Origin: an archaeon
Lineage (GTDB): Archaea > Nanobdellota > Nanobdellia > SCGC-AAA011-G17 > GW2011-AR17
DNA: 64,000 nt
Assembly (NCBI GenBank): GCA_018692925.1
Contig: JABHLH010000016.1
Location: 19,462 to 83,461, forward strand
Direction: 5' to 3'
Shown here piece after piece: positions 22,735-40,018 of the stretch. Positions within the stretch are counted from its first letter, which is position 1; every line of letters begins with the position of its first letter. The notes under the pieces were generated by a model. The model was not told where the DNA came from, did no database searches, and saw only the letters and a list, made by a program, of their open reading frames with translations. The translations under genes and the position numbers were made by a program.

Positions 22735-22751
22735 ACTCTTTAAAAACTTTA

Positions 22752-25429: not shown

Positions 25430-25469
25430 ATTTCACAAATATTAGAATCCTTTTTTAAGATTTATGATC

Positions 25470-25799
25470 TTAAAAATCCATTCTAAACTCTAAACCATGT
25501 TTATCAAACCCTAACCTTTCATACAAAGCATGGACTTTTATTTTTTTTAATCTACTTGTACAAATAAGTTTATAACAACCTTCAGTTTGAGCAGTTTCAA
25601 TAACTTCCTTCACTAATTTAGAGCCATAACCTTGTCCTTGAAATTCGCCTTGAACAAAAACATCTTCCAATAAACCATAAGGCTCTGCATGTAAATCATT
25701 TTTTATAAGATAAAGAAAAGCTCTTGCAACTTCTACACCTTCTTCTTCCAAAGAGAATCTAATACTCCTTGAAATATTTTCATTTTGTTTTATTACCAT
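25470..25799 (-). CDS. GNAT family N-acetyltransferase
   Basis: An acetyl-CoA binding motif Q/RxxGxG/A is present (QGQGYGSKLV). Confidence 0.75.
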   Translation of the reverse strand: MVIKQNENISRSIRFSLEEEGVEVARAFLYLIKNDLHAEPYGLLEDVFVQGEFQGQGYGSKLVKEVIETAQTEGCYKLICTSRLKKIKVHALYERLGFDKHGLEFRMDF

Positions 25800-25831
25800 T
25801 AAATATTATTTTAGAAATTATTTTTAAAAGA

Positions 25832-26245
25832 TTATGAACGCATTTTCTTTAGTTCAGATCTTGAAATTTCTTGAGTGTTAAAAGAACCTAAAACTTCACT
25901 TAATTTATTTACCATATCATCAAGAGAATTATATTCAATAATTTCTCCCATTGAAGCCATTGAACTTTGTAATTTAGATCCTTTTTTATGCATAACCAGA
26001 ATTTGAACATCATAAGCATCAGCCCATCCTGCCTCAATTCCAGCCCCTGTACTAGGATAAGAAGCCTCAACAACTAATAAATCACATTCATTTCTAAAAA
26101 ATTCTTTAGAGCTAAAAAGAGAATCAGAATATTCATGAGGTAAAATAATATCATGCTCGTAATTCAATTCACTTTCTCTTAAAGGACTATACAATTCAGT
26201 CTTAAAATCAAATTTCTTTGAATGTGCTACATATATTTTTACCAT
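25832..26245 (-). CDS. Nucleoside 2-deoxyribosyltransferase-like protein
   Basis: N-terminal IYVAHS and ...STGAGIEAGWADAYDVQILV resemble the NDT/YtoQ-like fold motifs. Confidence 0.4.
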   Translation of the reverse strand: MVKIYVAHSKKFDFKTELYSPLRESELNYEHDIILPHEYSDSLFSSKEFFRNECDLLVVEASYPSTGAGIEAGWADAYDVQILVMHKKGSKLQSSMASMGEIIEYNSLDDMVNKLSEVLGSFNTQEISRSELKKMRS

Positions 26246-26246
26246 T

Positions 26247-27548
26247 TTACATAAACCTCATAACTTTCAAATACATTTTGTGCAATCCTTGAACAGAAGT
26301 CAAATGTTTAGCTACATAACCCCATCTTTTAGGATGAGTATAAAATTCAAACAACAATCTTTTCTGTAAAAATTTCAATTCTGAAAAAGAAATATTCTCA
26401 TCTTCAAAAATTCTATTTTTATAATAATCATAATTCTCTGTTAACTTATATTTACCTTTCATACTTTCATACAAATGTGTTTCAGGAAGTGGAGTAGTAA
26501 TTGTTGCAGTAATCTCAGTTGCATCCAAAGATTTAGCAAATTTAATAGTTTGTAAAATCTCTTCTTTAGTTTCCCCTGGAGCTCCAAGCATAATATAACA
26601 AAGACATCTAATTCCAACTTTCTCTGCCATAGCTACATCACCATGAACTTTTGAAAGATCAATATCTTTATGATAAATTTCATCTGCAACTCTTTGACTT
26701 CCAGTTTCTACACCTACATGCATAATTCTCAAACCAGCTGCATACATCATTCTCATTTCTTCTTCATTCAGTAAACCAATTCTAGAATTAATTCCCCACT
26801 GCATTTCTAATTCTTCATCAACAAGTCTTTTACAAAAAACTTTTATCCATTCTTTTCTAACAGTAAAAGTATCATCATTAAACCAAATAGCATTAATACC
26901 AAAATGATTTTTCAAATGTTTCATTTCTTCAATAACACTATCAACTGACCTAGTTCTAACACCTTTACCAAAAATCTTTTCTAAAACTGGCTGACAAAAT
27001 GTACATCTAAAAGGACATCCTCTTGAAGAAAACATATTTGTTCCTCTAACATTTGGATCAATACTATCAAAGACATGCCACAATTTGATATAATCTTCCA
27101 TATCCAATAAATCATAAGCCATAATAGGTAAATTCTCAAGATCAAATCTCTCACCTTGAATAATTTTTTCTTTACACTTACCTTTCAAAATATCCAACAT
27201 AGCAGATTCAGCTTCACCTTTCACAACAAAATCAGAAAATTCTGTTAATGTCTCAGGCCTTAGTGTAGCTTGTGGACCTCCAATAATTACTTTCTTACCT
27301 TTAGACTTTGCATACTTTGCAATTTTCTTAACATCATTTAACATTAAAGAATCACAATAAATAGCAACATAATCTGCATCAAAATCATCAATTCTTTTTC
27401 TGATATAATCCATTGTAGGATGAAAAGTTGAATCTATTAGATCTACAGAATAACCATTATTTCTCAAATGTGCTGCAATTAAAGCCAAACCACCTGGAGG
27501 ATCTCCAGTTTTATACTTCATCCTTGCAAACACTAAACTTATCTTCAT
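26247..27548 (-). CDS. B12-binding (class B) radical SAM enzyme
   Basis: An N-terminal cobalamin-binding Rossmann-like domain is followed by a CPFRCTFC (CxxxCxxC) radical SAM cluster motif. Confidence 0.85.
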   Translation of the reverse strand: MKISLVFARMKYKTGDPPGGLALIAAHLRNNGYSVDLIDSTFHPTMDYIRKRIDDFDADYVAIYCDSLMLNDVKKIAKYAKSKGKKVIIGGPQATLRPETLTEFSDFVVKGEAESAMLDILKGKCKEKIIQGERFDLENLPIMAYDLLDMEDYIKLWHVFDSIDPNVRGTNMFSSRGCPFRCTFCQPVLEKIFGKGVRTRSVDSVIEEMKHLKNHFGINAIWFNDDTFTVRKEWIKVFCKRLVDEELEMQWGINSRIGLLNEEEMRMMYAAGLRIMHVGVETGSQRVADEIYHKDIDLSKVHGDVAMAEKVGIRCLCYIMLGAPGETKEEILQTIKFAKSLDATEITATITTPLPETHLYESMKGKYKLTENYDYYKNRIFEDENISFSELKFLQKRLLFEFYTHPKRWGYVAKHLTSVQGLHKMYLKVMRFM

Positions 27549-27640
27549 AACTCAAATTATTCCAGAATAGACATATATAAGTTTTATTATACTATAATAA
27601 CCCATAAAATTTATAAAGAATCCTTAAGAAAATACACTAG

Positions 27641-28369
27641 ATGTTAAAAGAAAAACAAGATATCAAGAGTCATTACGATTCAGAAGGATTAATCAAGGGA
27701 TATGTTCAAAACAGATTTTCAAAACCTCTAGGCAAATTTTTACATGAAAGAGAAACTTCAATAGTAAACTTATATATTCAAAAAAGCAATGCAGAATCTG
27801 TATTAGATTTAGCTTGTGGCCCTGCAAGATTAACTGTAGATATTGAAACAAAAAATGGAACAGCTTTTGATAATGCAAAAAATATGTTAAGCGTTGCAAA
27901 AAAAAGACTAAAAGGTAAAAAATGGAAATTTGTTCAAGGTGACGCATTCAATTTAAAATTAAAAAATAAATTTGATTTAATTTATTCATTTAGATTCTTC
28001 AGACATTTCAACAAAGAAGACAGAAAATCACTTTTAGCAAATGTACATTCTCACTTAAATGACAATTCTATTTTCATAACAGATATGGCAAATATCAAAT
28101 TCAGAGATAGATCATTAAAACAAAGTAACGAAAGTATTGATGTTGTAGATTACAAAATTGAAAAAAAAGAATTCATTCAAGAATTAGAAGATGCTGGTTT
28201 TGAAATAATTGAAATCGATACTGTAATCAACCATTATAATTTACAAGTTAATGCATCAAGATTATATTACTTAAATTTAGATTCTGTTGCGATGGCTTTA
28301 ATTAGAGAGTTTGAAAGATATCCACCATTTGCAGCTCAAGAATTCGTATTTATAGCTAGAAAAAAATGA
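27641..28369 (+). CDS. Class I SAM-dependent methyltransferase
   Basis: Motif I is VLDLACGPARL, with an acidic post-I motif. It is the paralog of the N-terminal domain of 43061..44476. Confidence 0.7.
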   Translation: MLKEKQDIKSHYDSEGLIKGYVQNRFSKPLGKFLHERETSIVNLYIQKSNAESVLDLACGPARLTVDIETKNGTAFDNAKNMLSVAKKRLKGKKWKFVQGDAFNLKLKNKFDLIYSFRFFRHFNKEDRKSLLANVHSHLNDNSIFITDMANIKFRDRSLKQSNESIDVVDYKIEKKEFIQELEDAGFEIIEIDTVINHYNLQVNASRLYYLNLDSVAMALIREFERYPPFAAQEFVFIARKK

Positions 28370-29082
28370 AAAAAGTCCCTTCAATCAAAGAATTGAATAA
28401 ATTCGCTTGGAAATTCAAAAACAGAAAAACTGAAACTCACCTTAGAATTTTCTCTCCTTATTTTCTTTGGACTTTACTTCACACAAAGATCACTCCAAAT
28501 CAACTTACTATGTTTTGGGTTTTATTAGTAATTATCACATCACCATTTTTCTTAATCTACAATTTTTCAGTTCACATTGTTGCTAGTGCAATTATTTTAC
28601 TTTGTTTACAATTAGACATGGTTGACGGTTCTTTAGCAAGATACAAAAAACAATTCAGTAAGAAAGGAGCTATCATAGATTTCATAGGATCTTGGCTAAT
28701 GGCTATTCTTCCACAAACTTTCTTAGCTATCACATACTTCATACATACAGGAAAAACTTGGATCATTATTGCATTACCTTTCTTCTTAATTGGATTTATC
28801 ATGAAAGAGTTAATTCCATTAAAAGAAATGTTCATTTATCAAAAGAAGATTAAAGATGATAAACCTAAAGACAAAGGAAGATTACACAACATTTATTCTT
28901 TTGCAAGAAAACTAATGCTTATTGATTATTCAATTGAAATGTTATTTATCTCTATACTAATTGGAATTCCTGAATACTACATTTTATTCTATGCATTCTC
29001 TTACAACTTATATTGGATTGCAAAAACTATACATGTATTCATAAAAAAGGAAGATCTTTCTAAAGAAGTATTTTTAACTTAA
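28366..29082 (+). CDS. CDP-alcohol phosphatidyltransferase-like membrane protein
   Basis: DMVDGSLARYKKQFSKKGAIIDFIG partly matches D-G-x2-A-R-x8-G-x3-D. It has 5-6 TM helices. Its start overlaps the upstream methyltransferase gene by 4 nt. Confidence 0.5.
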   Translation: MKKVPSIKELNKFAWKFKNRKTETHLRIFSPYFLWTLLHTKITPNQLTMFWVLLVIITSPFFLIYNFSVHIVASAIILLCLQLDMVDGSLARYKKQFSKKGAIIDFIGSWLMAILPQTFLAITYFIHTGKTWIIIALPFFLIGFIMKELIPLKEMFIYQKKIKDDKPKDKGRLHNIYSFARKLMLIDYSIEMLFISILIGIPEYYILFYAFSYNLYWIAKTIHVFIKKEDLSKEVFLT

Positions 29083-30560
29083 CGTCTAAAGCTCTTAAAA
29101 CTTTTCATATCTTCTTTACTTATTCCTCCAAAGAGAAACAAGAACAACAAGTATACAAAACCATAAACCAAAGCAAAGAGAATCAAGCTATACTTTTCTA
29201 CACTTCCAAAGATCCAAACTAGAGCAAAGAAACTAAGAACTCCTACAATTATAACTTTCAAATATTGTTTTACTAAATCAAAATCTAAAAGTGAAATCCT
29301 AAACTTTCTAAATAAAGGTACAAATAACAAAATATTAAACACTAAAAATGAAAAAGCTGTTGCCAAAGCAGCACCTGTAATCCCATAGCTTTGAATAAAG
29401 ACAATATTCAGCACAACTCCAATACCTGTCGCAATAAAACTAATCACTAACTTCAGTTTAGTCATTGCAAAGCTATTATACAACAAACCTAATACTCCAA
29501 AAAATGTAACAACCATTGTTCCTAACAATAAAATCCTCATAGGCCACAAAGCTCCAATATAATCTACACCAAACAAAAATACAATTAATTCTCCAGTATA
29601 ATAGAACATAAACATAAACAGGGGAAAAGTTAAACTAACAAACCAAGTTAACAATTTCTTATACACTTTTTTAATTTCTTTAAATTTCTTCTCAGCATAC
29701 AATTTACTAACTACAGGAATAAATAAACCTTTAAACAAATTAACAGGTATAACTAACAAAGCTGCCAAAGGTATTGCAACATTATACACTCCAACTAACT
29801 CTTCAGTTAAAAAATAACCAATCATCAAAGTATCAATCCAAGTCATACAAGTAAACAAAGCCCCCATAAACAACAAAGGCCAAGAAAATGTCAATAATTT
29901 TTTTCCAAAAGATTTACCTAAATTTTGATCTTTATATTTTGAAATTAATTTCCATACAATTAACATTCCAACTAAAAAACTAACAAAATAACTCAGGACA
30001 TAAGCCCACATAACTCCAAACAATGAATACCCATAATACAAAAATGCTACAGCCAATAGAACTTTCACTCCTGGCTCAACAATTTGCCTCACAGTAATAT
30101 AATGCTCAATCTTTTTAGTACCTCTAAACACAGCCATAAACAATTCAGTTAAAACCCAGAAAGGCAAGACTAAAGCTAAGATTAACAAGAAATACTTTAA
30201 TGTTCCATTTGAACTAATCAAACTTGACAACTGACTAGAAAATAAAAACAAGAGTACAGCAAATATCAAACTAGAAATTAAGGCAATCTTTAAACCTGAG
30301 AAGATAATATTCTTCATTTCTTTTTTCTGACCATAGAAATATCCAAGATATCTTTCAACACCATGTTCTAAACCTAAAGATGCTACCATCCCTACAATAC
30401 TAAAAACAGCAATACCTAAACTCAAAATACCATAATCTGCTGGACCTAACCATCTAGCAACAATTGTTCTAAATGCAAAATTCAATAATTTCGAGAAGAA
30501 TAGACCTATAAATATAAAGAAGGCTCCTCTTACGATCCAATCCAGCGAACTTTTAGACAT
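29079..30560 (-). CDS. Wzx-like polysaccharide/oligosaccharide flippase (MOP superfamily)
   Basis: 493 aa with ~12-14 TM helices. The N-terminal pattern is typical of polysaccharide biosynthesis proteins. Confidence 0.65.
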   Translation of the reverse strand: MSKSSLDWIVRGAFFIFIGLFFSKLLNFAFRTIVARWLGPADYGILSLGIAVFSIVGMVASLGLEHGVERYLGYFYGQKKEMKNIIFSGLKIALISSLIFAVLLFLFSSQLSSLISSNGTLKYFLLILALVLPFWVLTELFMAVFRGTKKIEHYITVRQIVEPGVKVLLAVAFLYYGYSLFGVMWAYVLSYFVSFLVGMLIVWKLISKYKDQNLGKSFGKKLLTFSWPLLFMGALFTCMTWIDTLMIGYFLTEELVGVYNVAIPLAALLVIPVNLFKGLFIPVVSKLYAEKKFKEIKKVYKKLLTWFVSLTFPLFMFMFYYTGELIVFLFGVDYIGALWPMRILLLGTMVVTFFGVLGLLYNSFAMTKLKLVISFIATGIGVVLNIVFIQSYGITGAALATAFSFLVFNILLFVPLFRKFRISLLDFDLVKQYLKVIIVGVLSFFALVWIFGSVEKYSLILFALVYGFVYLLFLFLFGGISKEDMKSFKSFRR

Positions 30561-30593
30561 ATAAGAAATATAAAAAGACCTATTTAAAAAACT

Positions 30594-31517
30594 TTAGAAT
30601 TCCAATTTTTTACGATATGTCCAATATACAACTAAACCAAATGCATACTTAAACAAGATATTAAACAAAAAGTAATTTACTGACACTGCATAAGGAACAC
30701 CAATCAAACCATACATATAAATTCCTGAGATTTCTTTCAACCCTAAACCTGAAAATGGTATAGGCAACAAAGAGATCATAATGATTAGAGATTGTATCAT
30801 CGCAATATGAAAAATAGAAACTTCTGCTCCAAACATTCTAAATGCAACAAGTCCACCAAAAAATATTCCACTTAATAAAATTGCAGTAATAAAAAAATTC
30901 AAAACTAAAATCTTTTTTCTTCTCTTAAACACATGTTTAAACGAATGTGAAAACCTCTTAAAATACTTTGAATACTTTCTTAAAAAATACTTCTTAATAA
31001 ATCTTCTAACTTTATTTGACCAAGCTCCTAAAAACACACTAACTAAAACTAACAGAGTAGCTAACAAAATCCAAGTATAATCTTGAGATAAATCAAAAAC
31101 AAATAACAAACCTAATACAGCCATTACACCATAAAAAGAAAAAGTAATCAATTTATCAATAAACTGTACAGAAAGAACTTCTCCATATTCAAAATTTTTA
31201 TGTTTCTTCAATAATAATGTTAAACTCAATTCTCCAGTTTTACTTGGAAAAAATAATGCTAAAGAGTTCATCAAAAGAAAATACTTAAACAAACCAAAAT
31301 AAGAAATTCTTCGACGAATAGCCTTAAACAATAATCTTAAATTCAAAGTATAGATCATTTTAGTTCCAACAAAAATAACTACAAATGGGATCAACCAAAA
31401 CAGATTAATATTCTTCAAAACTTCAAAAATGCTATCTACACCAACTTTCCAAAATATTAAAATGAAAATACTAACTAAAATAAAAACATTCAATACTTTC
31501 AACCAAATCTTATTCAT
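30594..31517 (-). CDS. Flippase-like domain membrane protein (UPF0104/LPG-synthase-TM-like)
   Basis: 307 aa, polytopic. The N-terminal KVGVDSIFEVLKNINLFWL pattern is typical of this family. Confidence 0.45.
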   Translation of the reverse strand: MNKIWLKVLNVFILVSIFILIFWKVGVDSIFEVLKNINLFWLIPFVVIFVGTKMIYTLNLRLLFKAIRRRISYFGLFKYFLLMNSLALFFPSKTGELSLTLLLKKHKNFEYGEVLSVQFIDKLITFSFYGVMAVLGLLFVFDLSQDYTWILLATLLVLVSVFLGAWSNKVRRFIKKYFLRKYSKYFKRFSHSFKHVFKRRKKILVLNFFITAILLSGIFFGGLVAFRMFGAEVSIFHIAMIQSLIIMISLLPIPFSGLGLKEISGIYMYGLIGVPYAVSVNYFLFNILFKYAFGLVVYWTYRKKLEF

Positions 31518-31559
31518 ATTATAAAAATTAGAAACTCGGCTTTTAAATCTTATGGAAAA

Positions 31560-33101
31560 TTACTTATTTTCAACTTTAATTTCATCATTATCAAGAACAT
31601 CAATCTCAGAAGTCATTTTTTCCAACCTATAGTAGATATTCTTCAAATCAGGCCTAAACAAAGACTTAGCACTTTGATCCATATAAGGCAATTTATCTAA
31701 AAGAACTTTCATCATTTTATCACTATAATATAATTCTTTCATTACAGCTCTCAAGATATTAAATTTAGTTCTTTTCTTAAACTTAAAGAAAACATTCAAA
31801 GTATCTTTAATATCTAAAACTAAACTCTTTTCTTTTATCCAAGGAGATTTATCTAAAAGATATCTATCATTCCAAGAAGAGTCAACTAAATTCCATTCTT
31901 TCATTTTTTTAGGATGGCTATACTCTCCACTTTCAACTAGCTCATCATACATTGAACCACCTGGATAAGGCCTATAAATACTTGGACCATGTAAATATAA
32001 ATTTGGATTAATTTTATACAATTCTAAAATAAATCTAAAAGTTCTCAACATATCATCTCTATTCTCTCCAGGCATTCCAATAATAAAACTAGTTCTTGGA
32101 ACAATTCCTGCTTCACCACAATCTTTTACAGCTCTCATAACACTTTCTAACTTCAAACCTTTCCTCATTTTCTTCAACATTCTATCAGAACCAGATTCAA
32201 CACCAAAAAGAATAGCTGTACCACCTAACTCTCTCATTCTTTTCAAAACATCAACTGTCAAATAATCATCATTAATATAATCAGCTCTACATTGTGAGTT
32301 CCAAGTAAATTTCAAACCCCTTCTCTCAATCTCGTCTAAAAATCTAAAGAACCTATCTTTCTTCACAAAAAACAATTCATCAATCAAATAAATATCATCA
32401 ACTTCATGCTCATTAATTAACCATTCAATTTCATCTAAAACATGATCAATATCTCTACCTTGCCATTTTCTTTGCATTGCAGAATTAATACAGAAAGTAC
32501 ATGAAAAAGGACATCCATTCCCAGAGAATACAATTCCAGTTTTAACTCTCACACCTTTTCTAAAAGGCAAACTTCTTTCAATAGGATGAAATTTATTTAT
32601 CAATTCATAATTCATTCTTGGTAACTTAGAAAGATCCATCAAACTTCTTTTATCATTAAATATTAACTCATCATTTTCTTTATACCCTAAACCTTTAATT
32701 TCACTTAATTTTTTATCTCCTCTCATTGCATGAATTAATTCTTCACAAAGTTCTTCACCATCTCCAAAACAGATATAATCAATCAACTCATGTTTCAAAG
32801 TTTGAATAGGGAATAAGATTGCATGATAACCACCAAAAATAACTTTAATCTTCGGAAATTTATCTTTAACATATTTAGCTAATTTAAGAGCTTCAGGAAT
32901 TTGTGTACTCATTGCAGAGATTCCAACATACAAAGTTTCTTCAGTAACAAAATTATCAACTGCTTCTAGATCTTTAGAACTGAAAATTAAATTAACATTA
33001 TACTCTTTAGCATCTAAGTAACTTCCAATTGAAAGCAATCCACAATTAAACTCTTCTGTTGACCCACTATGAGATGGATCTATGAATACCACATTTTCCA
33101 T
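31560..33101 (-). CDS. B12-binding (class B) radical SAM enzyme
   Basis: An N-terminal B12-binding domain is followed by a GCPFSCTFC cluster motif. Confidence 0.85.
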   Translation of the reverse strand: MENVVFIDPSHSGSTEEFNCGLLSIGSYLDAKEYNVNLIFSSKDLEAVDNFVTEETLYVGISAMSTQIPEALKLAKYVKDKFPKIKVIFGGYHAILFPIQTLKHELIDYICFGDGEELCEELIHAMRGDKKLSEIKGLGYKENDELIFNDKRSLMDLSKLPRMNYELINKFHPIERSLPFRKGVRVKTGIVFSGNGCPFSCTFCINSAMQRKWQGRDIDHVLDEIEWLINEHEVDDIYLIDELFFVKKDRFFRFLDEIERRGLKFTWNSQCRADYINDDYLTVDVLKRMRELGGTAILFGVESGSDRMLKKMRKGLKLESVMRAVKDCGEAGIVPRTSFIIGMPGENRDDMLRTFRFILELYKINPNLYLHGPSIYRPYPGGSMYDELVESGEYSHPKKMKEWNLVDSSWNDRYLLDKSPWIKEKSLVLDIKDTLNVFFKFKKRTKFNILRAVMKELYYSDKMMKVLLDKLPYMDQSAKSLFRPDLKNIYYRLEKMTSEIDVLDNDEIKVENK

Positions 33102-33189
33102 TTCCCATCTTTATTATGCCAAATTTAAATAATTATCGGTGCATTAATCTACTAAATCTTCAGAAACTTTATAAATCGTACAAAAAGGG

Positions 33190-33591
33190 ATGATAAATAT
33201 GATTGCGGAGGGAAAAGTTCTAGTTATAGACTTAGATGGTGTACTATGTAAAATAAAAAGTTCTGAACAAGAATACTCAGACTTAGAACCCATTCCAGAA
33301 GTAATTGAAAGGATCAAACTTTACAAAAAAGAAGGATTCCATATAATTATCAACACTAGTAGAAACATGCGAACTTACAAAGGTAATCTTGGAAAAATAA
33401 ATGCTAATACTCTAAAAACTATTTTCCAGTGGTTAGATCACCATAATATTCCTTATGATGAAATTCACATTGGTAAACCTTGGTGTGGTAAAGAAGGATT
33501 TTACATTGATGACAAAGCAATCAGACCTTCAGAATTTTTAAACAAGAGTTATGACGAGATAAAAGAAATTTTAGATGGAGAGAAATTATGA
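33190..33591 (+). CDS. HAD-superfamily phosphatase, small capless GmhB/PNK-phosphatase-like
   Basis: Motif I is VIDLDGVLC, motif II is NTSR, and the Lys motif is GKP. Its stop overlaps the start of the next gene (ATGA). Confidence 0.6.
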   Translation: MINMIAEGKVLVIDLDGVLCKIKSSEQEYSDLEPIPEVIERIKLYKKEGFHIIINTSRNMRTYKGNLGKINANTLKTIFQWLDHHNIPYDEIHIGKPWCGKEGFYIDDKAIRPSEFLNKSYDEIKEILDGEKL

Positions 33592-35972
33592 AAAATTTAA
33601 TTTTAATTCCGACAGCTCTAAATGTTGACAAAGAGATGCATTTAGACATTGGAGAAATTCCACCTGTTCTTGTACCAATCAGTGGAAAACCATTATTAGA
33701 TTATATTATTGAAGCTTACAACAAATTCCCTGGAGAAAAAACTTATTGCCTTCTTGTTAATGAAAACAAAGATAGAGTTAAAAAAATAATTGAAAGGAAA
33801 AAATACAAAGAGAACATAAAATTAATTGAAATTGACAATCTTAGAAGTTTAGGTTGGACTATTTTCGAAGGTTTAAGCAAAATTAATCTTTCAGAATACG
33901 ACAATTTAATTGTTAACTTTGGAGACACTCTTGTCGATGAGAGTTTTGAAACAAACAAAGATTTAGTTCTTTATGATGACTTACCTGAAACTTACAGATG
34001 GACAACTTTTGAAACTGAAAACAACAAAATAATTCAAATCAAAGATAAAATAAATACAAACGAACACAAAATCCATCATGTATTTGTAGGAATATTCCAA
34101 ATAAAAAACCCCCAATTATACTTCCAAAAAATTGAAGAAGATCCTGACAAAGGTTTTTACTCAACTTTAATGTCTTACTTAAATTCAACAAATGAATATG
34201 AAATACTAAAAACAAACAAGTGGTACGACATAGGCCACATTGACAATTATTTCCAAACAAAAAAAGATTTCATCAATTTAAGATACTTCAACACAATAAA
34301 AATTCACGACAAAAAAGGAATTTTAGAAAAAACTAGTAAACATGAAAAATTCATTGGAGAAATAAAATGGTACTTACAAATCCCTCAAGAGCTTCAATCT
34401 TACCTACCAAAAATATTTGACTATTCAATAAATCCTGACAACCCTTTCATAAAAATGGAATATTATGGTTATCCTAACCTTGGAGAAATTTACACTTTTG
34501 GGAACTACAACTTAGGAATTTGGAGCCACATTTTTGATTCAATATTATACATTCTCGACGAGATGTCAAGATACAAACTAACAATCTCTGAAGAAGAAGC
34601 TAGAAAAGCTAGAGAAGAAATATTTGTAGACAAAACAATCCAAGCTTTAGAATTAATGTCAACAAAAGAAGAATTCAAACCTTTATTTGAAAACAAAATA
34701 ACAATCAATGGACAACAATATGAATCCTTAAATTTTTACAAAAACAAAATAAAAGAACTTTGTGAAGAACACTTACTAAATGCACCAAACGAATTCAATT
34801 TAATCCATGGTGACCTTTGTACATCAAACATTCTTTATGATCCAAAAAGTAAAATTACAAAACTAATTGACCCAAGAGGAAAATTTGGCCAACACACAAC
34901 TTATGGAGATTTCAGATACGACTTAGGAAAACTAACTCACAGTTTTAATGGAAAATATGAATTTATTATTAATGACTTATTCAACTTAGAAATTTCAAAC
35001 AACAATATAACTTATGAAATGTTTACTAACGACAAACATGAGAAAATTACAACCCTTTTCAAAAAAAGAATTGAAGAAAAATATCCAACTAATAAAGAAC
35101 AAATCCAATTAATTGAAGCTTTACAATATTTAAGTATGGTTCGAATGCATTTCCCAAAAACAGAAAGACAATTTGCAATGTTAACTACAGGAATTCAATT
35201 ACTAGATCCACTAATTGAAAAAGAAAACAAAATGAACATTATTTTACCAATGGCTGGGCTTGGTTCAAGATTCACAAAAGTAGGAATAACAACTCCTAAA
35301 CCTTTAATCAAAGTAAGAGGAAAACAATTAATCAAATGGGCTTTAGATTCCATCCCTCAAAATACAGAGCACAATTTAATTTTCATAGTTAGACAAGAAC
35401 ACATTAACGAATTCAAAATAGACCAAAAACTAAAAGAGTTATTTTCAGAAAACATAACAATCATACCAATTAATCATACAACAGAAGGAGCTGCTTGTAC
35501 AGTTTTACTTGCAAAGAAACACATAAACAACAACAATCCTTTAATTATCCTAGACTGCGACATTCACTTAAAAGTTCCAAAATATTTCGAATTATTAAAA
35601 GATAAAAATATCAAAGGAATTATTCCAGTTTTCAGAGGAGAAGGTGACAAATGGAGCTTTTCAAAAACAGATGAAAATATGAGAATTCAGGAAGTAGCAG
35701 AAAAAAATAGAATCTCAGAGTTTTGTAACATGGGAATGTATTTCTTCCAACATGGAAAAGATTTTGTTTGGGCAGCTGAAGACATGATAAATAAAAATAT
35801 AAGATTCAACAACGAATTTTATATCTCTCCAGTTTTTCAACAACTAATTGATAGAGGAGACCAAATCAAAGCAGCTTTATGTACAGAAGCTTGGGGACTT
35901 GGAACACCAGAAGATGTAAAACTTTTTGAAGAAATTTATCCTAAAGAAACTACTCAGTATACTCTGCTCTAA
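33588..35972 (+). CDS. Tri-domain enzyme: nucleotidyltransferase, then APH/choline-kinase-like kinase, then nucleotidyltransferase
   Basis: The N-terminus has LVPISGKPLLDYII and FGDTLVD, like a sugar/alcohol-phosphate NTP-transferase. The middle has LIHGDLCTSNILYD and GDFRYDLGKL, an APH/ChoK catalytic loop and DFG-equivalent. The C-terminus has ILPMAGLGSRF...KPLIKVRGKQLIKWALD, a second LicC/GlmU-like nucleotidyltransferase. Confidence 0.75.
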   Translation: MKNLILIPTALNVDKEMHLDIGEIPPVLVPISGKPLLDYIIEAYNKFPGEKTYCLLVNENKDRVKKIIERKKYKENIKLIEIDNLRSLGWTIFEGLSKINLSEYDNLIVNFGDTLVDESFETNKDLVLYDDLPETYRWTTFETENNKIIQIKDKINTNEHKIHHVFVGIFQIKNPQLYFQKIEEDPDKGFYSTLMSYLNSTNEYEILKTNKWYDIGHIDNYFQTKKDFINLRYFNTIKIHDKKGILEKTSKHEKFIGEIKWYLQIPQELQSYLPKIFDYSINPDNPFIKMEYYGYPNLGEIYTFGNYNLGIWSHIFDSILYILDEMSRYKLTISEEEARKAREEIFVDKTIQALELMSTKEEFKPLFENKITINGQQYESLNFYKNKIKELCEEHLLNAPNEFNLIHGDLCTSNILYDPKSKITKLIDPRGKFGQHTTYGDFRYDLGKLTHSFNGKYEFIINDLFNLEISNNNITYEMFTNDKHEKITTLFKKRIEEKYPTNKEQIQLIEALQYLSMVRMHFPKTERQFAMLTTGIQLLDPLIEKENKMNIILPMAGLGSRFTKVGITTPKPLIKVRGKQLIKWALDSIPQNTEHNLIFIVRQEHINEFKIDQKLKELFSENITIIPINHTTEGAACTVLLAKKHINNNNPLIILDCDIHLKVPKYFELLKDKNIKGIIPVFRGEGDKWSFSKTDENMRIQEVAEKNRISEFCNMGMYFFQHGKDFVWAAEDMINKNIRFNNEFYISPVFQQLIDRGDQIKAALCTEAWGLGTPEDVKLFEEIYPKETTQYTLL

Positions 35973-37407
35973 AAATTAATCTTGGGTTTTTCTTAATAAT
36001 CTTAATAACATCCTTTGCAGCTTTCTTAATACCATATCCTTTTGCATGATGATAAAGAACTTTAGCCTTATGTGTATATTCTTTCAAAAATAATTTAGGA
36101 TTAGTTCTTCTATAAGCACAATAAGCTTTATTAATTTCTTCTTCAGCTTCTCTTTTCACAACTAAAAGTTCATCATCAGACATATCAGAAAGATTAATTA
36201 AAATTTCATAAGTACCAGTTAGATTTCTTAAATATTCAACTTCATCAGTAATTCTACCATCTTCCACACACATTCTATAAAACTCAGAACCTGGCAATGG
36301 AGTACTAATAAAAAATTGTGTTACAGGTTGCACATGCAATCTTTTACAAAAATTAATTGTTTCTCTTACAGTTTCTCTAGTTTCTTTAGGGTTTCCAATC
36401 ATCATAAGAACTCCAGGAATCAAACCAGCTTTAACTGTCAATCTCAAAGCTCTCTCATTTAATTCTACAGTAGATTCTTTATTGATACTATCCAAAATAG
36501 TTTGGCTTCCAGATTCAATACCATAAGCAACATAATAACATCCTGAAGCTTTCATAGCTTTCAGAACTTCAAAATCAACATGATTAACTCTACCATTACA
36601 TTTCCATCTTATTTTCAAAGGCTTAATTTTTTCACAAAGCTCTAACATCCTTTTCCTAGACATCATAACTAACTCATCTTCAAAATCAATAACTTCAACT
36701 TTATACTTATCTTTCAAAATTTTAATTTCTTCAATAACGTTATCCACTGACCTCATATTTACAACTGGAAAATTCTTTGAACAAAAATGACAATTGAACG
36801 GACAACCTCTTGTAGTAATCACACACATTCTTCTTGAACTGTTTGCAATACCTAACCTTGTTGCACCAATATATTTTTCAACATCAAATAAATCCCAAGC
36901 TGGGAAAGGCACTTCATCAATTTTATGTATTTCAGAAATAGATTTAGTAACAAAAACTTTTCCATCTTTCAAATAAGCCATAGATTCAACTTCAGAAGGA
37001 TCTTCTAAATTTTCTAAGAGTTTAGGCATAACATATTCTCCCCAACCTAAAACACAAAAATCAACATCCATTGTTTCTAAAACTTGTTTATAATTATATT
37101 TTGCTAATGCTCCCCCAATTAAAATTTTTCTTTCAGGATGCATCCCTTTAACTTCTTTAATAAACCACTCCATATACTTAAAATGTGGAGACATTGCAGT
37201 AATCCCCATAATATCATATTCAATATCTTTTAGTTTTGAAAGTGTTTCTTCTTTAGAATAATGATTAACCCAAGCATCAAAAATTTCAACTTCATGACCC
37301 TTTTCTTTTAGAACAGCAGCTACATAAGCTAAGCCCAAAGGAAATCTTTGCGCCTCCCTGTCCTTATCCCCATGAAAATTTGGAGGTTGTACCAAAAGAA
37401 CCTTCAT
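35950..37407 (-). CDS. B12-binding (class B) radical SAM enzyme
   Basis: An N-terminal B12-binding domain (MKVLLVQPPNF...) is followed by a GCPFNCHFC cluster motif. Confidence 0.85.
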   Translation of the reverse strand: MKVLLVQPPNFHGDKDREAQRFPLGLAYVAAVLKEKGHEVEIFDAWVNHYSKEETLSKLKDIEYDIMGITAMSPHFKYMEWFIKEVKGMHPERKILIGGALAKYNYKQVLETMDVDFCVLGWGEYVMPKLLENLEDPSEVESMAYLKDGKVFVTKSISEIHKIDEVPFPAWDLFDVEKYIGATRLGIANSSRRMCVITTRGCPFNCHFCSKNFPVVNMRSVDNVIEEIKILKDKYKVEVIDFEDELVMMSRKRMLELCEKIKPLKIRWKCNGRVNHVDFEVLKAMKASGCYYVAYGIESGSQTILDSINKESTVELNERALRLTVKAGLIPGVLMMIGNPKETRETVRETINFCKRLHVQPVTQFFISTPLPGSEFYRMCVEDGRITDEVEYLRNLTGTYEILINLSDMSDDELLVVKREAEEEINKAYCAYRRTNPKLFLKEYTHKAKVLYHHAKGYGIKKAAKDVIKIIKKNPRLIFRAEYTE

Positions 37408-37520
37408 ATCTCAAAGTCTAGAATTCAAACATTTAAAAAGATTATGATAGTGGATTGGCCTAAATTTGAACCCAATGTTAATTCATTAAATTTATAAAAT
37501 AAAAATAAAAAAAGAAAAAT

Positions 37521-37859
37521 ATGAAATTTCCAAAATTATGCATATTATCAGGATTTGCTTATGAAGAAGGTAAAAAGATTAATCTCCCTTGGGCAATAGA
37601 CTCTGAAACTACTTTTTTAAGACAATCTGGATTATATGAAAAATTATTAGAAATTGAAAATATTGGAGGAATAGATTCTGATTTTGATTATCGTGGTCCT
37701 GTAAAATTAATCCCTGGAAAAATCGAAGGTAAAAAGCATTATTTTTTAAGAGTTCCTTTAGAAGCATTTCAAGAAGGTTGGGGAGTTCAAATTTCAGAAA
37801 CTTATAGAGAACACCTTATTGAAGAGAACTTAGAAAGTATTACACATAGATTTTCTTAA
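37521..37859 (+). CDS. Hypothetical protein
   Basis: 112-aa ORF. No motif recognised. Confidence 0.35.
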   Translation: MKFPKLCILSGFAYEEGKKINLPWAIDSETTFLRQSGLYEKLLEIENIGGIDSDFDYRGPVKLIPGKIEGKKHYFLRVPLEAFQEGWGVQISETYREHLIEENLESITHRFS

Positions 37860-37897
37860 ACAAAACTCTTATAAAACAAAAGAAAATTACCAAAATT

Positions 37898-38152: not shown

Positions 38153-38194
38153 AATACATTAAACTTATTAATGCTCATTTAATTTTCTTTTACA

Positions 38195-39418: not shown

Positions 39419-39458
39419 AACAAAAGATTTAAATACTATAGCCACCTATATAGTCACT

Positions 39459-39928: not shown

Positions 39929-40018
39929 AATCCCAGGGTAGATTTCACCAAAAATATCTCCTAAATAACATACAACAACTACATAAAACTTAAAAAGCAA
40001 ATAGAATAGAATTCTCTC

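What the first reader, a model, noticed from the sequence alone, without database searches (positions are those of the whole stretch)
26247..37407. Three paralogous B12-binding radical SAM enzymes on the same strand, interleaved with transferase genes
Genes 26247..27548, 31560..33101 and 35950..37407 share the same architecture, an N-terminal cobalamin domain plus CxxxCxxC. They are 433-513 aa, all on the minus strand and spaced ~4-5 kb apart. Three class-B rSAMs in one locus suggests iterative or multi-site radical methylation, or another radical C-C chemistry, on a single product. This is rare outside antibiotic and lipid-tailoring clusters. The organism appears to be a small-genome archaeon.
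Basis: partly seen in the sequence, partly recalled or inferred. Interest (0 to 1): 0.6.

Follow-up and report, generated by a model that had tools for sequence, protein, structure and literature searches.

The report
Three radical-SAM enzymes in glycan island
Three distantly related radical SAM enzymes with vitamin-B12-type domains sit in a strain-variable cell-surface sugar island of a tiny Woesearchaeota (DPANN) archaeon, where they most likely make unusual radical modifications to surface sugars. Such clusters are common in uncultured microbes, but none has been characterised.

Summary
ORFs 26247-27548, 31560-33101 and 35950-37407 (all minus strand) each carry an N-terminal PF02310 B12-binding domain, a PF04055 radical SAM core and one CxxxCxxC motif.

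They are old paralogues, only 26-28% identical. Each belongs to its own widespread, uncharacterised subfamily. None reaches the cut-off of any curated family, including BchE, HpnJ, HpnR, PhpK/Sden_1168, MgmA, BzaD, TsrM and AprD4.

The host is a Woesearchaeota archaeon. The genes lie in a glycan island of at least 40 kb that also encodes:
- Dol-P-sugar synthase-like GT2s and PMT_2/GT-C transferases
- Wzx and LPG_synthase_TM membrane proteins
- CDP-alcohol phosphotransferases
- kinase/nucleotidyltransferase/HAD genes.

A close relative, about 87% nt identical in the flanks, shows three separate modules:
- rSAM-A is conserved core.
- rSAM-B is a divergent allele (75% nt).
- rSAM-C sits in a 5-kb strain-specific cassette that is absent from the relative.

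Homologues of all three recur in sugar-nucleotide and polysaccharide loci. Loci with two to seven B12-rSAM paralogues are common, so the "rare" claim fails.

Best reading: cytoplasmic radical tailoring, most likely C-methylation, of nucleotide- or dolichol-phosphate-linked sugars. The chemistry and the cobalamin use are inferred, not shown.

The parts
26247..27548 (-). rSAM-A, 433 aa: B12-binding domain + radical SAM core. Part of the conserved core module.
   Evidence: PF02310 at 69.8 bits and PF04055 at 75.6 bits. Motif CPFRCTFC at residue 178. 92% aa identical in the Woesearchaeota relative L008/L007. Orthologues at 57-66% in Woesearchaeota/Nanoarchaeota.
31560..33101 (-). rSAM-B, 513 aa: B12-binding domain + radical SAM core. 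First gene of a same-strand run with LPG_synthase_TM and Wzx. A divergent allele.
   Evidence: Domains. Only 72% aa / 75% nt identical to the relative, against about 90% aa / 84-89% nt for the flanks. Few close homologues exist.
35950..37407 (-). rSAM-C, 485 aa: B12-binding domain + radical SAM core. Lies inside the strain-specific cassette.
   Evidence: Domains. No counterpart in the relative. The AF2 model has pLDDT 89.4 and matches AprD4, MgmA, OxsB, TsrM, CysS and TokK about equally well. Homologues sit in sugar-nucleotide operons.
33140..38161 (.). Strain-specific replacement cassette holding HAD, the NT-kinase-NT fusion, rSAM-C and p112.
   Evidence: blastn against L007/L008 finds no alignment here. 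The relative carries an unrelated 7.8-kb cassette at this position: ROK, SDH-like, HAD, APH kinase, SIS and transketolase N and C.
33190..33591 (+). HAD phosphatase of the 'capsule biosynthesis phosphatase' type.
   Evidence: TIGR01689 EcbF-BcbF at 173.2 bits, above the 162-bit cut-off.
33588..35972 (+). 794-aa fusion: nucleotidyltransferase-like N-domain + APH-type kinase + sugar-1-phosphate nucleotidyltransferase.
   Evidence: PF00483 over residues 552-769 and PF01636 over residues 387-450. GlmU-like hit over residues 23-191. PDB 4evw NDP-sugar pyrophosphorylase at E 2e-23. Its 3' end overlaps rSAM-C by 23 nt, convergently.
37521..37859 (+). p112, unknown function. Divergent from rSAM-C and part of the cassette.
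   Evidence: No Pfam or NCBIfam hit. Absent from the relative.
30594..31517 (-). LPG_synthase_TM (flippase-like) membrane protein, 42 nt downstream of rSAM-B.
   Evidence: PF03706 at 101.9 bits. 65-66% aa identical in the relative, so it diverges together with rSAM-B. The same family neighbours rSAM-B and rSAM-C homologues elsewhere.
29079..30560 (-). Wzx/MATE-type polysaccharide flippase.
   Evidence: PF01943 at 87.6 bits and PF13440. 91% aa identical in the relative.
28366..29082 (+). CDP-alcohol phosphotransferase.
   Evidence: PF01066 at 36.2 bits. Not an archaetidylinositol-phosphate synthase: 43 bits against a 180-bit cut-off.
27641..28369 (+). Class-I SAM methyltransferase, divergent from rSAM-A across a 92-nt gap.
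   Evidence: PF13649 and PF08241.
25832..26245 (-). p137, a small protein 1 nt downstream of rSAM-A. Possibly a nucleoside 2-deoxyribosyltransferase / N-glycosidase-like fold.
   Evidence: Coordinates. 75% aa identical in the relative. Only weak PDB hits, E about 0.07, to DNPH1, BlsM and MilB.
25470..25799 (-). GNAT acetyltransferase, an insertion relative to the close relative.
   Evidence: PF00583. The region 25470-25913 has no counterpart in L007/L008.
23858..25429 (-). PMT_2 / GT-C membrane glycosyltransferase, same strand as rSAM-A.
   Evidence: PF13231 at 53.3 bits. PMT_2 and YfhO proteins recur next to rSAM-A relatives.
23143..23871 (+). GT2, polyprenyl-phosphate sugar synthase-like.
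   Evidence: PF00535. PDB hits: DPMS 5mlz at E 6e-24, also GtrB and ArnC.
22003..22734 (-). GT2, dolichol-phosphate mannose synthase-like.
   Evidence: PF00535. PDB 5mlz at E 2e-38.
19519..61787 (.). The whole surface-glycan island. Contents:
- GDP-mannose dehydratase
- 5 GT2, 3 GT4, 3 PMT_2 and 1 PTPS-related GT-C
- 4 SAM methyltransferases
- 2 CDP-alcohol phosphotransferases
- a 1051-aa Ig/PKD surface protein.

Best explanation
The three genes are tailoring enzymes of a hypervariable cell-surface glycoconjugate island in a Woesearchaeota (DPANN) archaeon. They are not one iterative set. They belong to three modules.

1. **rSAM-A, conserved core.** It is co-oriented with p137, a GNAT and a PMT_2/GT-C transferase, and lies next to two dolichol-phosphate-sugar-synthase-like GT2s. 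I propose it modifies a sugar on the cytoplasmic side, either as the NDP-sugar or as the Dol-P-sugar made by the GT2. The product is then flipped and transferred outside by the GT-C enzyme.
2. **rSAM-B, divergent allele.** It heads a run with an LPG_synthase_TM protein and Wzx, and it abuts the variable precursor cassette. Its substrate probably derives from that cassette's product.
3. **rSAM-C, strain-specific cassette.** It travels in a 5-kb cassette with a HAD phosphatase and a kinase/nucleotidyltransferase fusion. It most likely acts on the nucleotide-activated sugar that those enzymes make.

**Proposed chemistry for each (inferred, not shown).**
- The [4Fe-4S]-CxxxCxxC cluster reductively cleaves SAM.
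- The resulting 5'-deoxyadenosyl radical abstracts an H atom from an unactivated sugar carbon.
- Most likely, methylcobalamin on the N-domain then transfers a methyl group (C-methylation, as in GenK, GenD1 and MoeK5).
- A radical dehydration, epimerisation or ring contraction is the alternative outcome.
For: **Architecture**
- The domain scores and motifs are shown directly.
- The rSAM-C model adopts the class-B fold.

**Glycan island**
- establish the island.

**Module structure, from comparison with a close relative**
- The flanks and rSAM-A are 84-89% nt and 87-92% aa identical.
- LPG_TM plus rSAM-B are 75% nt and 65-72% aa identical.
- 33140-38161 is replaced by an unrelated sugar-phosphate cassette.

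**Gene spacing**
- The spacing supports co-transcription. Gaps are 1, 32 and 40 nt after rSAM-A, and 42 and 33 nt after rSAM-B.

**rSAM-A family contexts**
- Orthologues lie beside STT3/AglB, Glycos_transf_4, Wzx, GT2 and a membrane protein of about 480 aa.
- Among 108 immediate neighbours in 63 loci, the commonest families are GT2 (16), B12-rSAM (13), class-I MTase (7), PMT_2 (6) and YfhO (5).

**rSAM-B family contexts**
- Relatives lie next to LPG_synthase_TM, Wzx, a CDP-alcohol transferase, kinase/HAD/nucleotidyltransferase genes and sugar-phosphate-rearranging enzymes.

**rSAM-C family contexts**
- Relatives lie in NDP-sugar and nonulosonic-acid-type operons with NeuB, Epimerase_2, CTP_transf_3, DegT, GLF, GT2 and Wzx.
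- One relative is fused to a Glyco_transf_9 heptosyltransferase domain.

**Precedents**
- GenK, GenD1, Fms7 and MoeK5 are Cbl-rSAM C-methylases, and Fom3 uses a cytidylylated substrate (PMC9204698).
- HpnJ and Cds act on lipid-linked sugars (PMC13459092).
Against: - No homologue of any of the three subfamilies has a tested function. The substrate and chemistry rest on gene context only.
- Cobalamin binding is not shown. The best PDB match for A and C is AprD4, which has no cobalamin.
- DPANN archaea are not known to make cobalamin (my own knowledge). No uptake, salvage or electron-donor gene is in the window.
- In rSAM-A the family's conserved His in GGPHAT is Gln. The rSAM-C family lacks that His altogether.
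- CDP-alcohol phosphotransferases and the LPG_synthase_TM protein would also fit lipid head-group chemistry.
- The relative's rSAM-B carries an in-frame TAA stop at codon 456, so that gene may be dispensable.
Confidence: 0.55

Rival explanations
1. **Membrane-lipid tailoring.** The enzymes would modify isoprenoid chains or polar head groups of archaeal lipids, possibly lipids scavenged from a host. Known models are GrsA/GrsB (ring formation), Gmm (chain methylation) and HpnJ/Cds (sugar head group converted to a cyclitol).
For: - HpnJ is among the top NCBIfam hits for all three, at 142-179 bits.
- Two CDP-alcohol phosphotransferases and an LPG_synthase_TM protein are in the island.
- GrsA/B and Gmm are B12-domain rSAMs of archaea, and 6 Gmm homologues were reported in DPANN (PMC11214058).
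Against: - The HpnJ scores are far below the 577.6-bit cut-off, and any B12-rSAM scores about the same against it.
- No lipid-synthesis gene (Tes, Gms, GGGP/DGGGP synthase) lies in any context examined.
- The families are widespread in bacteria such as Armatimonadota, Elusimicrobiota and Omnitrophota, where the neighbours are GT2, GT-C and NDP-sugar genes.
- Direct comparison with GrsA/B, Gmm and Cds could not be made.
Confidence: 0.15
2. **Cobalamin-independent radical sugar chemistry.** At least one of the three, A or C in particular, would be an AprD4-like enzyme. Its Rossmann N-domain would bind no cobalamin, and it would catalyse radical 1,2-diol dehydration (deoxygenation) or epimerisation of a sugar.
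For: - AprD4 (6fd2) is the best PDB sequence match for A and C, at E 1e-20.
- It is also the best fold match for C, at TM 0.69-0.71.
- AprD4 acts on a sugar.
- AprD4 and ArsL sit inside B12-rSAM similarity networks without binding cobalamin (PMC12931638).
- This reading removes the cobalamin-supply problem for a DPANN cell.
Against: - The AprD4 family model scores 54-105 bits against a cut-off of 500.
- The sequence matches to AprD4 cover only the radical SAM core.
- MgmA, OxsB, TsrM and CysS, all cobalamin enzymes, match the fold about as well.
- PF02310 is above its gathering score in all three.
- No AprD3-like partner reductase lies next to them.
Confidence: 0.2
3. **The first reader's reading.** The three enzymes would act in sequence on one product, giving iterative or multi-site methylation of one molecule as in a natural-product cluster.
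For: - Three B12-rSAMs lie within 11 kb on one strand.
- Iterative Cbl-rSAM methylases exist, such as TokK and CysS.
Against: - The three sit in separate transcription units and modules with different conservation.
- The close relative keeps A and B but has no rSAM-C homologue within the 21 kb of DNA recovered around its rSAM-B (L007), where the cassette is replaced.
- Each family occurs alone in other glycan loci.
- They are only 26-28% identical to one another.
Confidence: 0.1
4. **Housekeeping enzyme.** This would be a BchE-like cyclase, as JGI annotates several homologues, or a peptide/RiPP-modifying rSAM.
For: - JGI names several homologues 'anaerobic magnesium-protoporphyrin IX monomethyl ester cyclase'.
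- BchE is the top NCBIfam hit for B and C.
Against: - BchE scores are 104-185 bits against a cut-off of 481.
- No tetrapyrrole genes, precursor peptides or RiPP genes appear in any context.
- The host is a non-phototrophic DPANN archaeon.
Confidence: 0.02

Closest known systems
GenK / GenD1 / Fms7 (aminoglycosides) and MoeK5 (moenomycin): cobalamin-dependent radical SAM sugar C-methyltransferases
   Same: - They share the N-terminal B12-type Rossmann domain and CxxxCxxC radical SAM core.
- They act on unactivated carbons of sugars. MoeK5 acts on a lipid-phosphoglycerate-linked sugar (my own knowledge; the enzymes are listed in PMC9204698).
   Different: - Those enzymes belong to antibiotic gene clusters of actinomycetes.
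- Here the context is a primary cell-surface glycan island of an archaeon.
- Sequence relationship could not be tested, because no sequence of these enzymes was available to the tools.
AprD4 (PDB 6fd2): radical SAM 1,2-diol dehydratase of apramycin biosynthesis
   Same: - It is the best solved-structure match for A and C by sequence (E 1e-20), and for C by fold (TM about 0.7).
- Its substrate is a sugar.
   Different: - AprD4 binds no cobalamin.
- Its family model scores far below cut-off here, 54-105 bits against 500.
- No partner reductase is encoded nearby.
HpnJ (hopanoid cyclitol ether) and Cds (calditol synthase)
   Same: - Both are radical SAM enzymes proposed to rearrange a sugar that is already attached to a lipid (PMC13459092).
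- HpnJ is a top family hit for all three.
   Different: - Scores are 142-179 bits against a cut-off of 577.6.
- No hopanoid or GDGT genes are present.
- The neighbours are Dol-P-sugar synthase and GT-C genes rather than lipid-core genes.
Fom3 (fosfomycin): Cbl-rSAM methylating cytidylyl-2-hydroxyethylphosphonate
   Same: - Its substrate carries a nucleotide handle made by an adjacent cytidylyltransferase (reference cited in PMC9204698).
- rSAM-C and its relatives sit beside nucleotidyltransferases.
   Different: - The window has no PEP mutase or other phosphonate genes.
- The related P-methylase models (PhpK, Sden_1168) are far below cut-off.
Three-component polyprenyl-phosphate glycosylation systems (GtrB/ArnC/DPMS-type GT2 + flippase + GT-C such as ArnT, YfhO or PMT)
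   Same: - The window holds DPMS/GtrB/ArnC-like GT2s.
- It holds PMT_2 GT-C enzymes.
- It holds flippase-like proteins.
- GT2, PMT_2 and YfhO are the commonest non-rSAM neighbours of rSAM-A relatives.
   Different: No known system of this kind includes a radical SAM tailoring step. ArnD, a deformylase, is the only comparable on-lipid tailoring step that I know of (my own knowledge).

Membership tests
Class B (B12-binding-domain) radical SAM superfamily | Radical SAM core with a CxxxCxxC motif for the [4Fe-4S] cluster | tested here: met
   PF04055 at 73-89 bits against a 29.5-bit cut-off. One CxxxCxxC motif in each protein.
Class B (B12-binding-domain) radical SAM superfamily | N-terminal Rossmann-type B12-binding domain (PF02310) | tested here: met
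   53-80 bits against a 32.1-bit cut-off. The GG and GEGE-like motifs are present. The rSAM-C model matches the class-B fold.
Class B (B12-binding-domain) radical SAM superfamily | Cobalamin is actually bound and used | not testable with these tools
   AprD4 and ArsL show that the domain can occur without cobalamin (PMC12931638). This needs protein chemistry.
Classical His-on B12 proteins (MetH/mutase type) | DxHxxG motif supplying the lower axial His ligand | tested here: not met
   Absent from all three proteins and from 55 family members. It is not a defining feature of B12-rSAMs: all solved structures are base-off with no His ligand.
BchE (TIGR02026) | Score at or above the 481.35-bit curated cut-off | tested here: not met
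   103.9, 155.5 and 184.5 bits.
HpnJ (TIGR03471) / HpnR (TIGR04367) | Score at or above the curated cut-off (577.6 / 650 bits) | tested here: not met
   HpnJ scores 142-179 bits and HpnR scores 73-83 bits.
P-methyltransferases PhpK (TIGR04479) / Sden_1168 (NF038361) | Score at or above the curated cut-off (600 / 575 bits) | tested here: not met
   102-176 bits.
MgmA/QCMT (TIGR04014), BzaD (TIGR04385), TsrM (TIGR04428), ladderane rSAM (TIGR04072), ApyD, KedN5 | Score at or above each curated cut-off | tested here: not met
   All are far below cut-off. PDB 9ccb (MgmA) matches only at E 7e-17 to 3e-6.
AprD4 (NF033070) | Score at or above the 500-bit cut-off | tested here: not met
   104.7, 54.1 and 92.3 bits. 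The fold is similar (TM 0.69-0.71), but so are the cobalamin enzymes.
GrsA/GrsB, Gmm, Cds, GenK, GenD1, MoeK5, Fom3, HpnP | Phylogenetic placement inside the characterised clade | not tested
   No model or sequence of these enzymes was reachable with the tools. Only their contexts could be compared, and those do not match.
Polyprenyl-phosphate (three-component) glycosylation system | DPMS/GtrB-type GT2 plus a GT-C transferase in the same locus | tested here: met
   GT2s match 5mlz at E 2e-38 and 6e-24. PMT_2 scores 53.3 bits.
Polyprenyl-phosphate (three-component) glycosylation system | A dedicated flippase for the lipid-linked monosaccharide | tested here: inconclusive
   Wzx-like and LPG_synthase_TM proteins are present. 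What they carry is unknown.
TIGR01689 EcbF-BcbF capsule biosynthesis phosphatase (gene 33190-33591) | Score at or above the 162-bit cut-off | tested here: met
   173.2 bits.

The most novel reading that the evidence does not exclude
DPANN archaea, and many uncultured bacteria, would diversify their cell surface with radical SAM chemistry carried on swappable gene cassettes.

- rSAM-A would be a new kind of step in polyprenyl-phosphate glycosylation. It would radically tailor (C-methylate or rearrange) a sugar while that sugar sits on the dolichol-phosphate carrier or on its nucleotide.
- rSAM-B and rSAM-C would give strain-specific C-branched, deoxy or carbocyclic sugars not yet known from archaeal glycans.
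- If the enzymes truly use cobalamin, these minimal symbionts must obtain it from their hosts just to decorate their surface.
Probability: 0.25. Interest if true: 0.7.

Novelty: new variant of a known kind. Interest (0 to 1): 0.45.

Why it matters
- **An unexplored role for a large enzyme class.** No radical SAM enzyme has an established role in archaeal surface-glycan or N-glycan pathways in the literature I could search. Among the 15 best-ranked papers on AglB, N-glycosylation and dolichol phosphate, none mentions 'radical SAM'. Yet these three subfamilies, and arrays of up to seven paralogues, recur next to GT2, GT-C and NDP-sugar genes across uncultured archaea and bacteria.
- **New sugar structures.** Working out one of them would assign a function to a large block of the unannotated B12-rSAM superfamily. 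It could reveal C-methylated, deoxy or carbocyclic sugars in cell envelopes.
- **Symbiont biology.** The cassette-like variation between near-identical strains suggests that surface variation matters for host or virus interaction in DPANN symbionts. Cobalamin dependence would add a new nutritional tie to the host.
- **Limits.** The finding itself is ordinary in one respect: it is a correct domain-level annotation of uncharacterised enzymes, and clustering of this kind is not rare.

Tried and rejected
- **Curated families.** I scanned all three proteins against NCBIfam. None reaches a cut-off, so BchE, HpnJ, HpnR, PhpK, Sden_1168, MgmA, BzaD, TsrM, AprD4, ArsL, ApyD, KedN5 and the ladderane rSAM are rejected as memberships.
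The motif is absent. I rejected the test itself, because solved B12-rSAMs have no His ligand.
- **Phylogeny against Fom3, GenK, GrsA/B, Gmm, Cds and MoeK5.** This could not be done.
- **Fold comparison.** The rSAM-C model against the PDB does not separate methylase from non-methylase: AprD4, MgmA, OxsB, TsrM, CysS and TokK all match. The afdb50 library was unavailable.
- **p137.** The single-sequence AF2 model was useless (pLDDT 35). Pfam and NCBIfam gave nothing, and the PDB gave only E about 0.07.
- **Metagenome scan with the rSAM-C alignment.** The patterns used were too generic (RGCPxxCxxC), so it returned only relatives at 38% identity or less. It was useful only for counting multi-rSAM loci.
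- **Partner genes of the cassette.** tblastn found HAD, NT-kinase-NT and p112 in none of the 167 loci held at that point (L001-L167; L168 and L169 were fetched afterwards).
- **Proximity control.**

  | Feature | Within 3 kb of rSAM-A relatives (n=28) | At 7-10 kb (n=28) |
  |---|---|---|
  | GT2 | 8 | 3 |
  | B12-rSAM paralogues | 8 | 6 |

  The enrichment is only modest and the sample is small.
- **Literature searches.** Searches for B12-rSAMs in capsule, O-antigen, N-glycan or DPANN contexts found nothing specific.
- **RNA genes.** The window has no tRNA and no Rfam family, and hence no cobalamin riboswitch.
- **Cobalamin and electron-donor genes.** None is in the window.

Full report

Yes. 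The mechanical ORF list gives minus-strand ORFs at 26247-27548 (433 aa, here rSAM-A), 31560-33101 (513 aa, rSAM-B) and 35950-37407 (485 aa, rSAM-C).

Each has an N-terminal PF02310 B12-binding domain, scoring 69.8, 53.0 and 80.4 bits against a gathering score of 32.1. Each also has a PF04055 radical SAM domain, scoring 75.6, 89.3 and 73.3 bits against 29.5. Each has exactly one CxxxCxxC motif: CPFRCTFC at residue 178, CPFSCTFC at 197 and CPFNCHFC at 202.

They are real genes. Homology searches return 1364, 421 and 1751 proteins at E<=1e-10 for A, B and C respectively.

- a class-I methyltransferase
- a CDP-alcohol phosphotransferase
- a Wzx-type flippase
- an LPG_synthase_TM protein
- a HAD phosphatase
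- a 794-aa nucleotidyltransferase-kinase-nucleotidyltransferase fusion.

**2. How are the three related?**

Only distantly. Pairwise BLASTP identity is 27%, 28% and 26%. Each is closer to its own family in other phyla:
- rSAM-A is 57-66% identical to Woesearchaeota/Nanoarchaeota proteins and 35-48% to bacterial ones.
- rSAM-C is 34-46% identical to proteins of Elusimicrobia, Omnitrophica, Chloroflexi, CPR and others.
- rSAM-B has four close relatives at 54-73% identity plus a 326-aa fragment at 54%, then drops to 41% or less.

They are therefore three old subfamilies brought together, not a local triplication.

**3. Do they belong to a characterised family?**

None reaches any curated NCBIfam cut-off.

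| Family | Scores here (bits) | Cut-off (bits) |
|---|---|---|
| BchE | 104-185 | 481 |
| HpnJ | 142-179 | 578 |
| Sden_1168 | 102-176 | 575 |
| PhpK | 104-121 | 600 |
| MgmA | 95-104 | 360 |
| AprD4 | 54-105 | 500 |

HpnR, BzaD, TsrM, KedN5, ApyD, ArsL and the ladderane rSAM are lower still. The JGI label 'anaerobic Mg-protoporphyrin IX monomethyl ester cyclase' on several homologues is thus a generic label, not evidence.

Against solved structures, the best sequence matches are:
- AprD4 6fd2, at E 1e-20 for A and C, covering the radical SAM core only
- MgmA/QCMT 9ccb, at E 7e-17 for B
- weaker hits to TokK, OxsB and CysS.

An AlphaFold model of rSAM-C, built on a 30-sequence alignment, has mean pLDDT 89.4. 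It matches AprD4 (TM 0.69-0.71), MgmA, OxsB, TsrM, CysS and TokK about equally well. So the fold is class B, but it does not tell a methylase from a non-methylase.

However, every solved B12-rSAM binds cobalamin base-off without a His ligand. Conversely, AprD4 and ArsL have related N-domains without cobalamin (PMC12931638). Cobalamin use is therefore plausible but unproven.

**4. Host and locus**

The left flank encodes archaeal CDC48, family-B DNA polymerase, FEN1, Trm5, FtsJ and a HerA-like ATPase. GC content is about 29%. rSAM-A is 92% identical to a gene on contig CAYPLB010000001.1 of a Ca. Woesearchaeota MAG, with full synteny.

From about 19.5 kb to at least 61.8 kb the window is a surface-glycan island. 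It contains:
- GDP-mannose 4,6-dehydratase
- five GT2, three GT4, three PMT_2 (GT-C) and one PTPS-related GT-C-like membrane protein
- a Wzx-type flippase and an LPG_synthase_TM protein
- four class-I methyltransferases
- two CDP-alcohol phosphotransferases, one of them fused to a methyltransferase
- three nucleotidyltransferase-bearing proteins
- DUF711
- a 1051-aa Ig/PKD surface protein.

The two GT2s next to rSAM-A match Pyrococcus dolichol-phosphate mannose synthase (5mlz, E 2e-38 and 6e-24), and also GtrB and ArnC. They look like polyprenyl-phosphate sugar synthases that feed GT-C enzymes.

**5. The key new result: three modules**

L007 (a JGI metagenome contig) and L008 (the GTDB MAG) are 99.9% identical to each other. 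Together they represent a close relative of the window organism. The comparison with the window (blastn, aa identities, relative's gene content) is as follows.

| Window region | Contents | Comparison with the relative |
|---|---|---|
| 17841-30600 | rSAM-A, methyltransferase, CDP-alcohol transferase, Wzx, PMT_2, GT2s | Aligns at 84-89% nt; listed genes 87-92% aa identical |
| 30604-33140 | LPG_synthase_TM + rSAM-B | Aligns at only 75% nt; 65-66% and 72% aa |
| 33140-38161 | HAD, NT-kinase-NT, rSAM-C, p112 | No counterpart |
| 38161-39930 | p407 | Synteny resumes at 83% nt |

In place of 33140-38161, the relative carries an unrelated 7.8-kb cassette. It encodes a ROK protein, a shikimate-dehydrogenase-like protein, a HAD, an APH-type kinase, a SIS isomerase and transketolase N and C halves. 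This resembles an NDP-heptose or higher-sugar pathway.

There are two smaller differences. The GNAT gene (25470-25799) is an insertion in the window. The relative has an extra NTP_transf_3 gene between LPG_synthase_TM and Wzx.

In short, rSAM-A is conserved core, rSAM-B is a divergent allele at the edge of the variable region, and rSAM-C is cassette cargo. This is the pattern of serotype-like glycan loci. It argues against the three acting iteratively on one product.

**6. Transcription units, from coordinates**

- rSAM-A is followed on the same strand by p137, GNAT and PMT_2, with gaps of 1, 32 and 40 nt.
- rSAM-B is followed by LPG_synthase_TM and Wzx, with gaps of 42 and 33 nt.
- rSAM-C stands alone. 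It is convergent with the HAD/NT-kinase-NT pair and overlaps it by 23 nt.
- Each rSAM gene starts at a short divergent intergenic region:
  - 92 nt to the methyltransferase/CDP-alcohol transferase pair
  - 88 nt to the HAD/NT-kinase-NT pair
  - 113 nt to p112.

**7. Context of relatives elsewhere**

*rSAM-A.* Orthologues in other Woesearchaeota lie next to an unannotated membrane protein of about 480 aa and a GT2. In one genome they lie directly after STT3/AglB, Glycos_transf_4 and Wzx, which is an N-glycosylation-type locus. Among 108 immediate neighbours of rSAM-A relatives in 63 GTDB loci, the commonest Pfam families are:
- GT2 (16)
- another B12-rSAM (13)
- class-I methyltransferases (7)
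- PMT_2 (6)
- YfhO (5)
- amine oxidase (5)
- epimerase (3).

*rSAM-B.* Relatives sit beside LPG_synthase_TM, Wzx, a methyltransferase, a CDP-alcohol transferase, kinases, HADs and nucleotidyltransferases. They also sit beside sugar-phosphate-rearranging enzymes: GatZ-like aldolase, DHQ-synthase-like cyclase, inositol-phosphatase and SDH-like reductase.

*rSAM-C.* Relatives at 43-46% identity sit in NDP-sugar and polysaccharide operons. In two cases they lie inside nonulosonic-acid-type operons with NeuB, Epimerase_2, CTP_transf_3, a dehydratase and DegT. One homologue is fused to a Glyco_transf_9 domain.

**8. Is three in one locus unusual?**

No.

| Locus set | At least 2 B12-rSAM genes | At least 3 | Maximum |
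|---|---|---|---|
| 77 non-redundant GTDB loci, within +/-10 kb of rSAM-A relatives | 27 | 12 | 5 |
| 80 metagenome loci | 23 | 8 | 7 (L142) |

Another DPANN contig holds three within 21 kb. The proximity control is only modest: GT2 occurs within 3 kb in 8 of 28 loci against 3 of 28 at 7-10 kb.

**9. Most likely mechanism**

*Shown:* the domain architecture, the cluster motif, the glycan-island context, the module structure and the recurrent glycan context of the relatives.

*Inferred:* the enzymes are cytoplasmic tailoring enzymes acting on sugar or polyol building blocks. They generate 5'-deoxyadenosyl radical, abstract an H atom from an unactivated carbon, and most likely transfer a methyl group from methylcobalamin. 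This is as in GenK, GenD1, Fms7 and MoeK5 (PMC9204698). The likely substrates are:
- **rSAM-C:** the NDP-sugar produced by its cassette partners. This parallels Fom3, whose substrate is cytidylylated.
- **rSAM-A:** an NDP- or Dol-P-linked hexose made by the adjacent GT2, modified before flipping and GT-C transfer. This parallels HpnJ and Cds, which are thought to work on lipid-linked sugars (PMC13459092).
- **rSAM-B:** a product of whichever cassette lies next to it, which would explain why it diverges together with the cassette.

I give about 0.55 to the glycan-tailoring model as a whole. Within it, I give roughly one-third to one-half to methylation as the chemistry.

**10. Rivals**

- **Lipid tailoring, about 0.15.** This would be GrsA/B-, Gmm-, HpnJ- or Cds-like. 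It is supported by the CDP-alcohol transferases and LPG_synthase_TM. It is weakened by the bacterial distribution and the GT2/GT-C/NDP-sugar neighbours.
- **AprD4-like cobalamin-free dehydratase or epimerase for at least one enzyme, about 0.2.** This overlaps with the main model.
- **One-product iterative methylation, about 0.1.**
- **BchE-like or RiPP role, about 0.02.**

**11. Novelty and interest**

The proteins are clear members of a known superfamily. They form three subfamilies with no characterised member, in a setting where no radical SAM step is established: archaeal and uncultured-bacterial surface-glycan islands with polyprenyl-phosphate glycosylation modules. I could find no such step in the searchable literature.

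I rate this a new variant of a known kind, with interest 0.45. The cassette-wise variation and the possible cobalamin dependence of a DPANN symbiont are the most interesting aspects. The bare observation, three B12-rSAM genes together, is common.

Noticed in passing
window 33140-38161 versus L007 2117-9962: A 5-kb cassette (HAD, NT-kinase-NT fusion, rSAM-C, p112) is replaced in a relative that is about 87% nt identical. The relative carries an unrelated 7.8-kb cassette there (ROK, SDH-like, HAD, APH kinase, SIS, transketolase N and C). This looks like serotype-like cassette exchange in a DPANN glycan locus.
   Followed up: yes
L007 11366-11368 and the same site in L008 (orthologue of window 31560-33101): The relative's rSAM-B has an in-frame TAA at codon 456, where the window has GAA. 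It occurs in two independent assemblies and removes the last 57 residues. This may be decay of the gene or a shorter functional form.
   Followed up: partly
window 25832-26245 (-): p137 starts 1 nt after the rSAM-A stop codon and is conserved (75% aa) in the relative. It has no Pfam or NCBIfam hit. There are weak, consistent PDB hits (E about 0.07) to DNPH1/Rcl, BlsM and the MilB CMP N-glycosidase, over a motif resembling the catalytic-Glu region. The single-sequence AF2 model failed (pLDDT 35).
   Followed up: partly
window 25470-25913: The GNAT acetyltransferase gene is a small insertion, absent from the close relative. It lies between p137 and the PMT_2 gene.
   Followed up: partly
window 26247-27548, residue 93; window 35950-37407, residues 98-102: In the rSAM-A family, the His of the GGPHAT motif is kept in 24 of 25 sequences. 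The window protein and its close relative have Gln (GGPQAT). The rSAM-C family has GGALA with no His, while rSAM-B has GGYHA. The meaning for cofactor binding is unknown.
   Followed up: partly
window 22752-23060 (-): A 102-aa PterinBD-DUF4346 protein (PF14251, 71 bits) sits between the two dolichol-phosphate-sugar-synthase-like GT2 genes. It is conserved in the relative (88% aa) and in another Woesearchaeota locus, L013 (49%). A pterin-binding-domain relative in a glycan locus is unexplained.
   Followed up: no
window 40019-44476 (+): This is a second activation module. It holds a 607-aa NTP_transf_3 protein with a SerK-like middle region, a DUF711 protein (238 bits), and a methyltransferase fused to a CDP-alcohol phosphotransferase. 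It suggests a CDP-activated, methylated alcohol phosphate added to the glycan or to a lipid.
   Followed up: no
L003 8040-11428 and L169 314-3663: Relatives of rSAM-C (43-44% identical) lie inside nonulosonic-acid-type operons, between NeuB or Epimerase_2 and a CMP-sugar synthetase (CTP_transf_3). This hints at radical modification of sialic-acid-like sugars in uncultured bacteria. In L003 a second radical SAM gene, of the SPASM type, lies adjacent.
   Followed up: partly
L142 (21 kb), L015 (11 kb), L029, L030, L033: These loci hold arrays of five to seven B12-domain radical SAM paralogues, often with GT2 genes. They come from metagenome contigs and from MAGs labelled Woesearchaeota, Planctomycetia, Pseudomonadota and unclassified bacterium.
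   Followed up: partly
P0112 (822 aa) and P0077 (806 aa): Members of the rSAM-C family are fused to extra domains. P0112 carries a Glyco_transf_9 (heptosyltransferase) domain, which directly links this rSAM family to glycan assembly.
   Followed up: no
window 55043-58198 (-): A 1051-aa protein with Big_13, Y_Y_Y and PKD-type Ig-like repeats lies inside the glycan island. It could be a surface or S-layer-like protein and a candidate target of glycosylation.
   Followed up: no
window 1-64000: There are no tRNA genes and no Rfam family at gathering score in 64 kb. GC skew is negative in most 2-kb bins, down to -0.44, and lies between -0.03 and +0.15 at 1-6, 10-14 and 38-44 kb.
   Followed up: no
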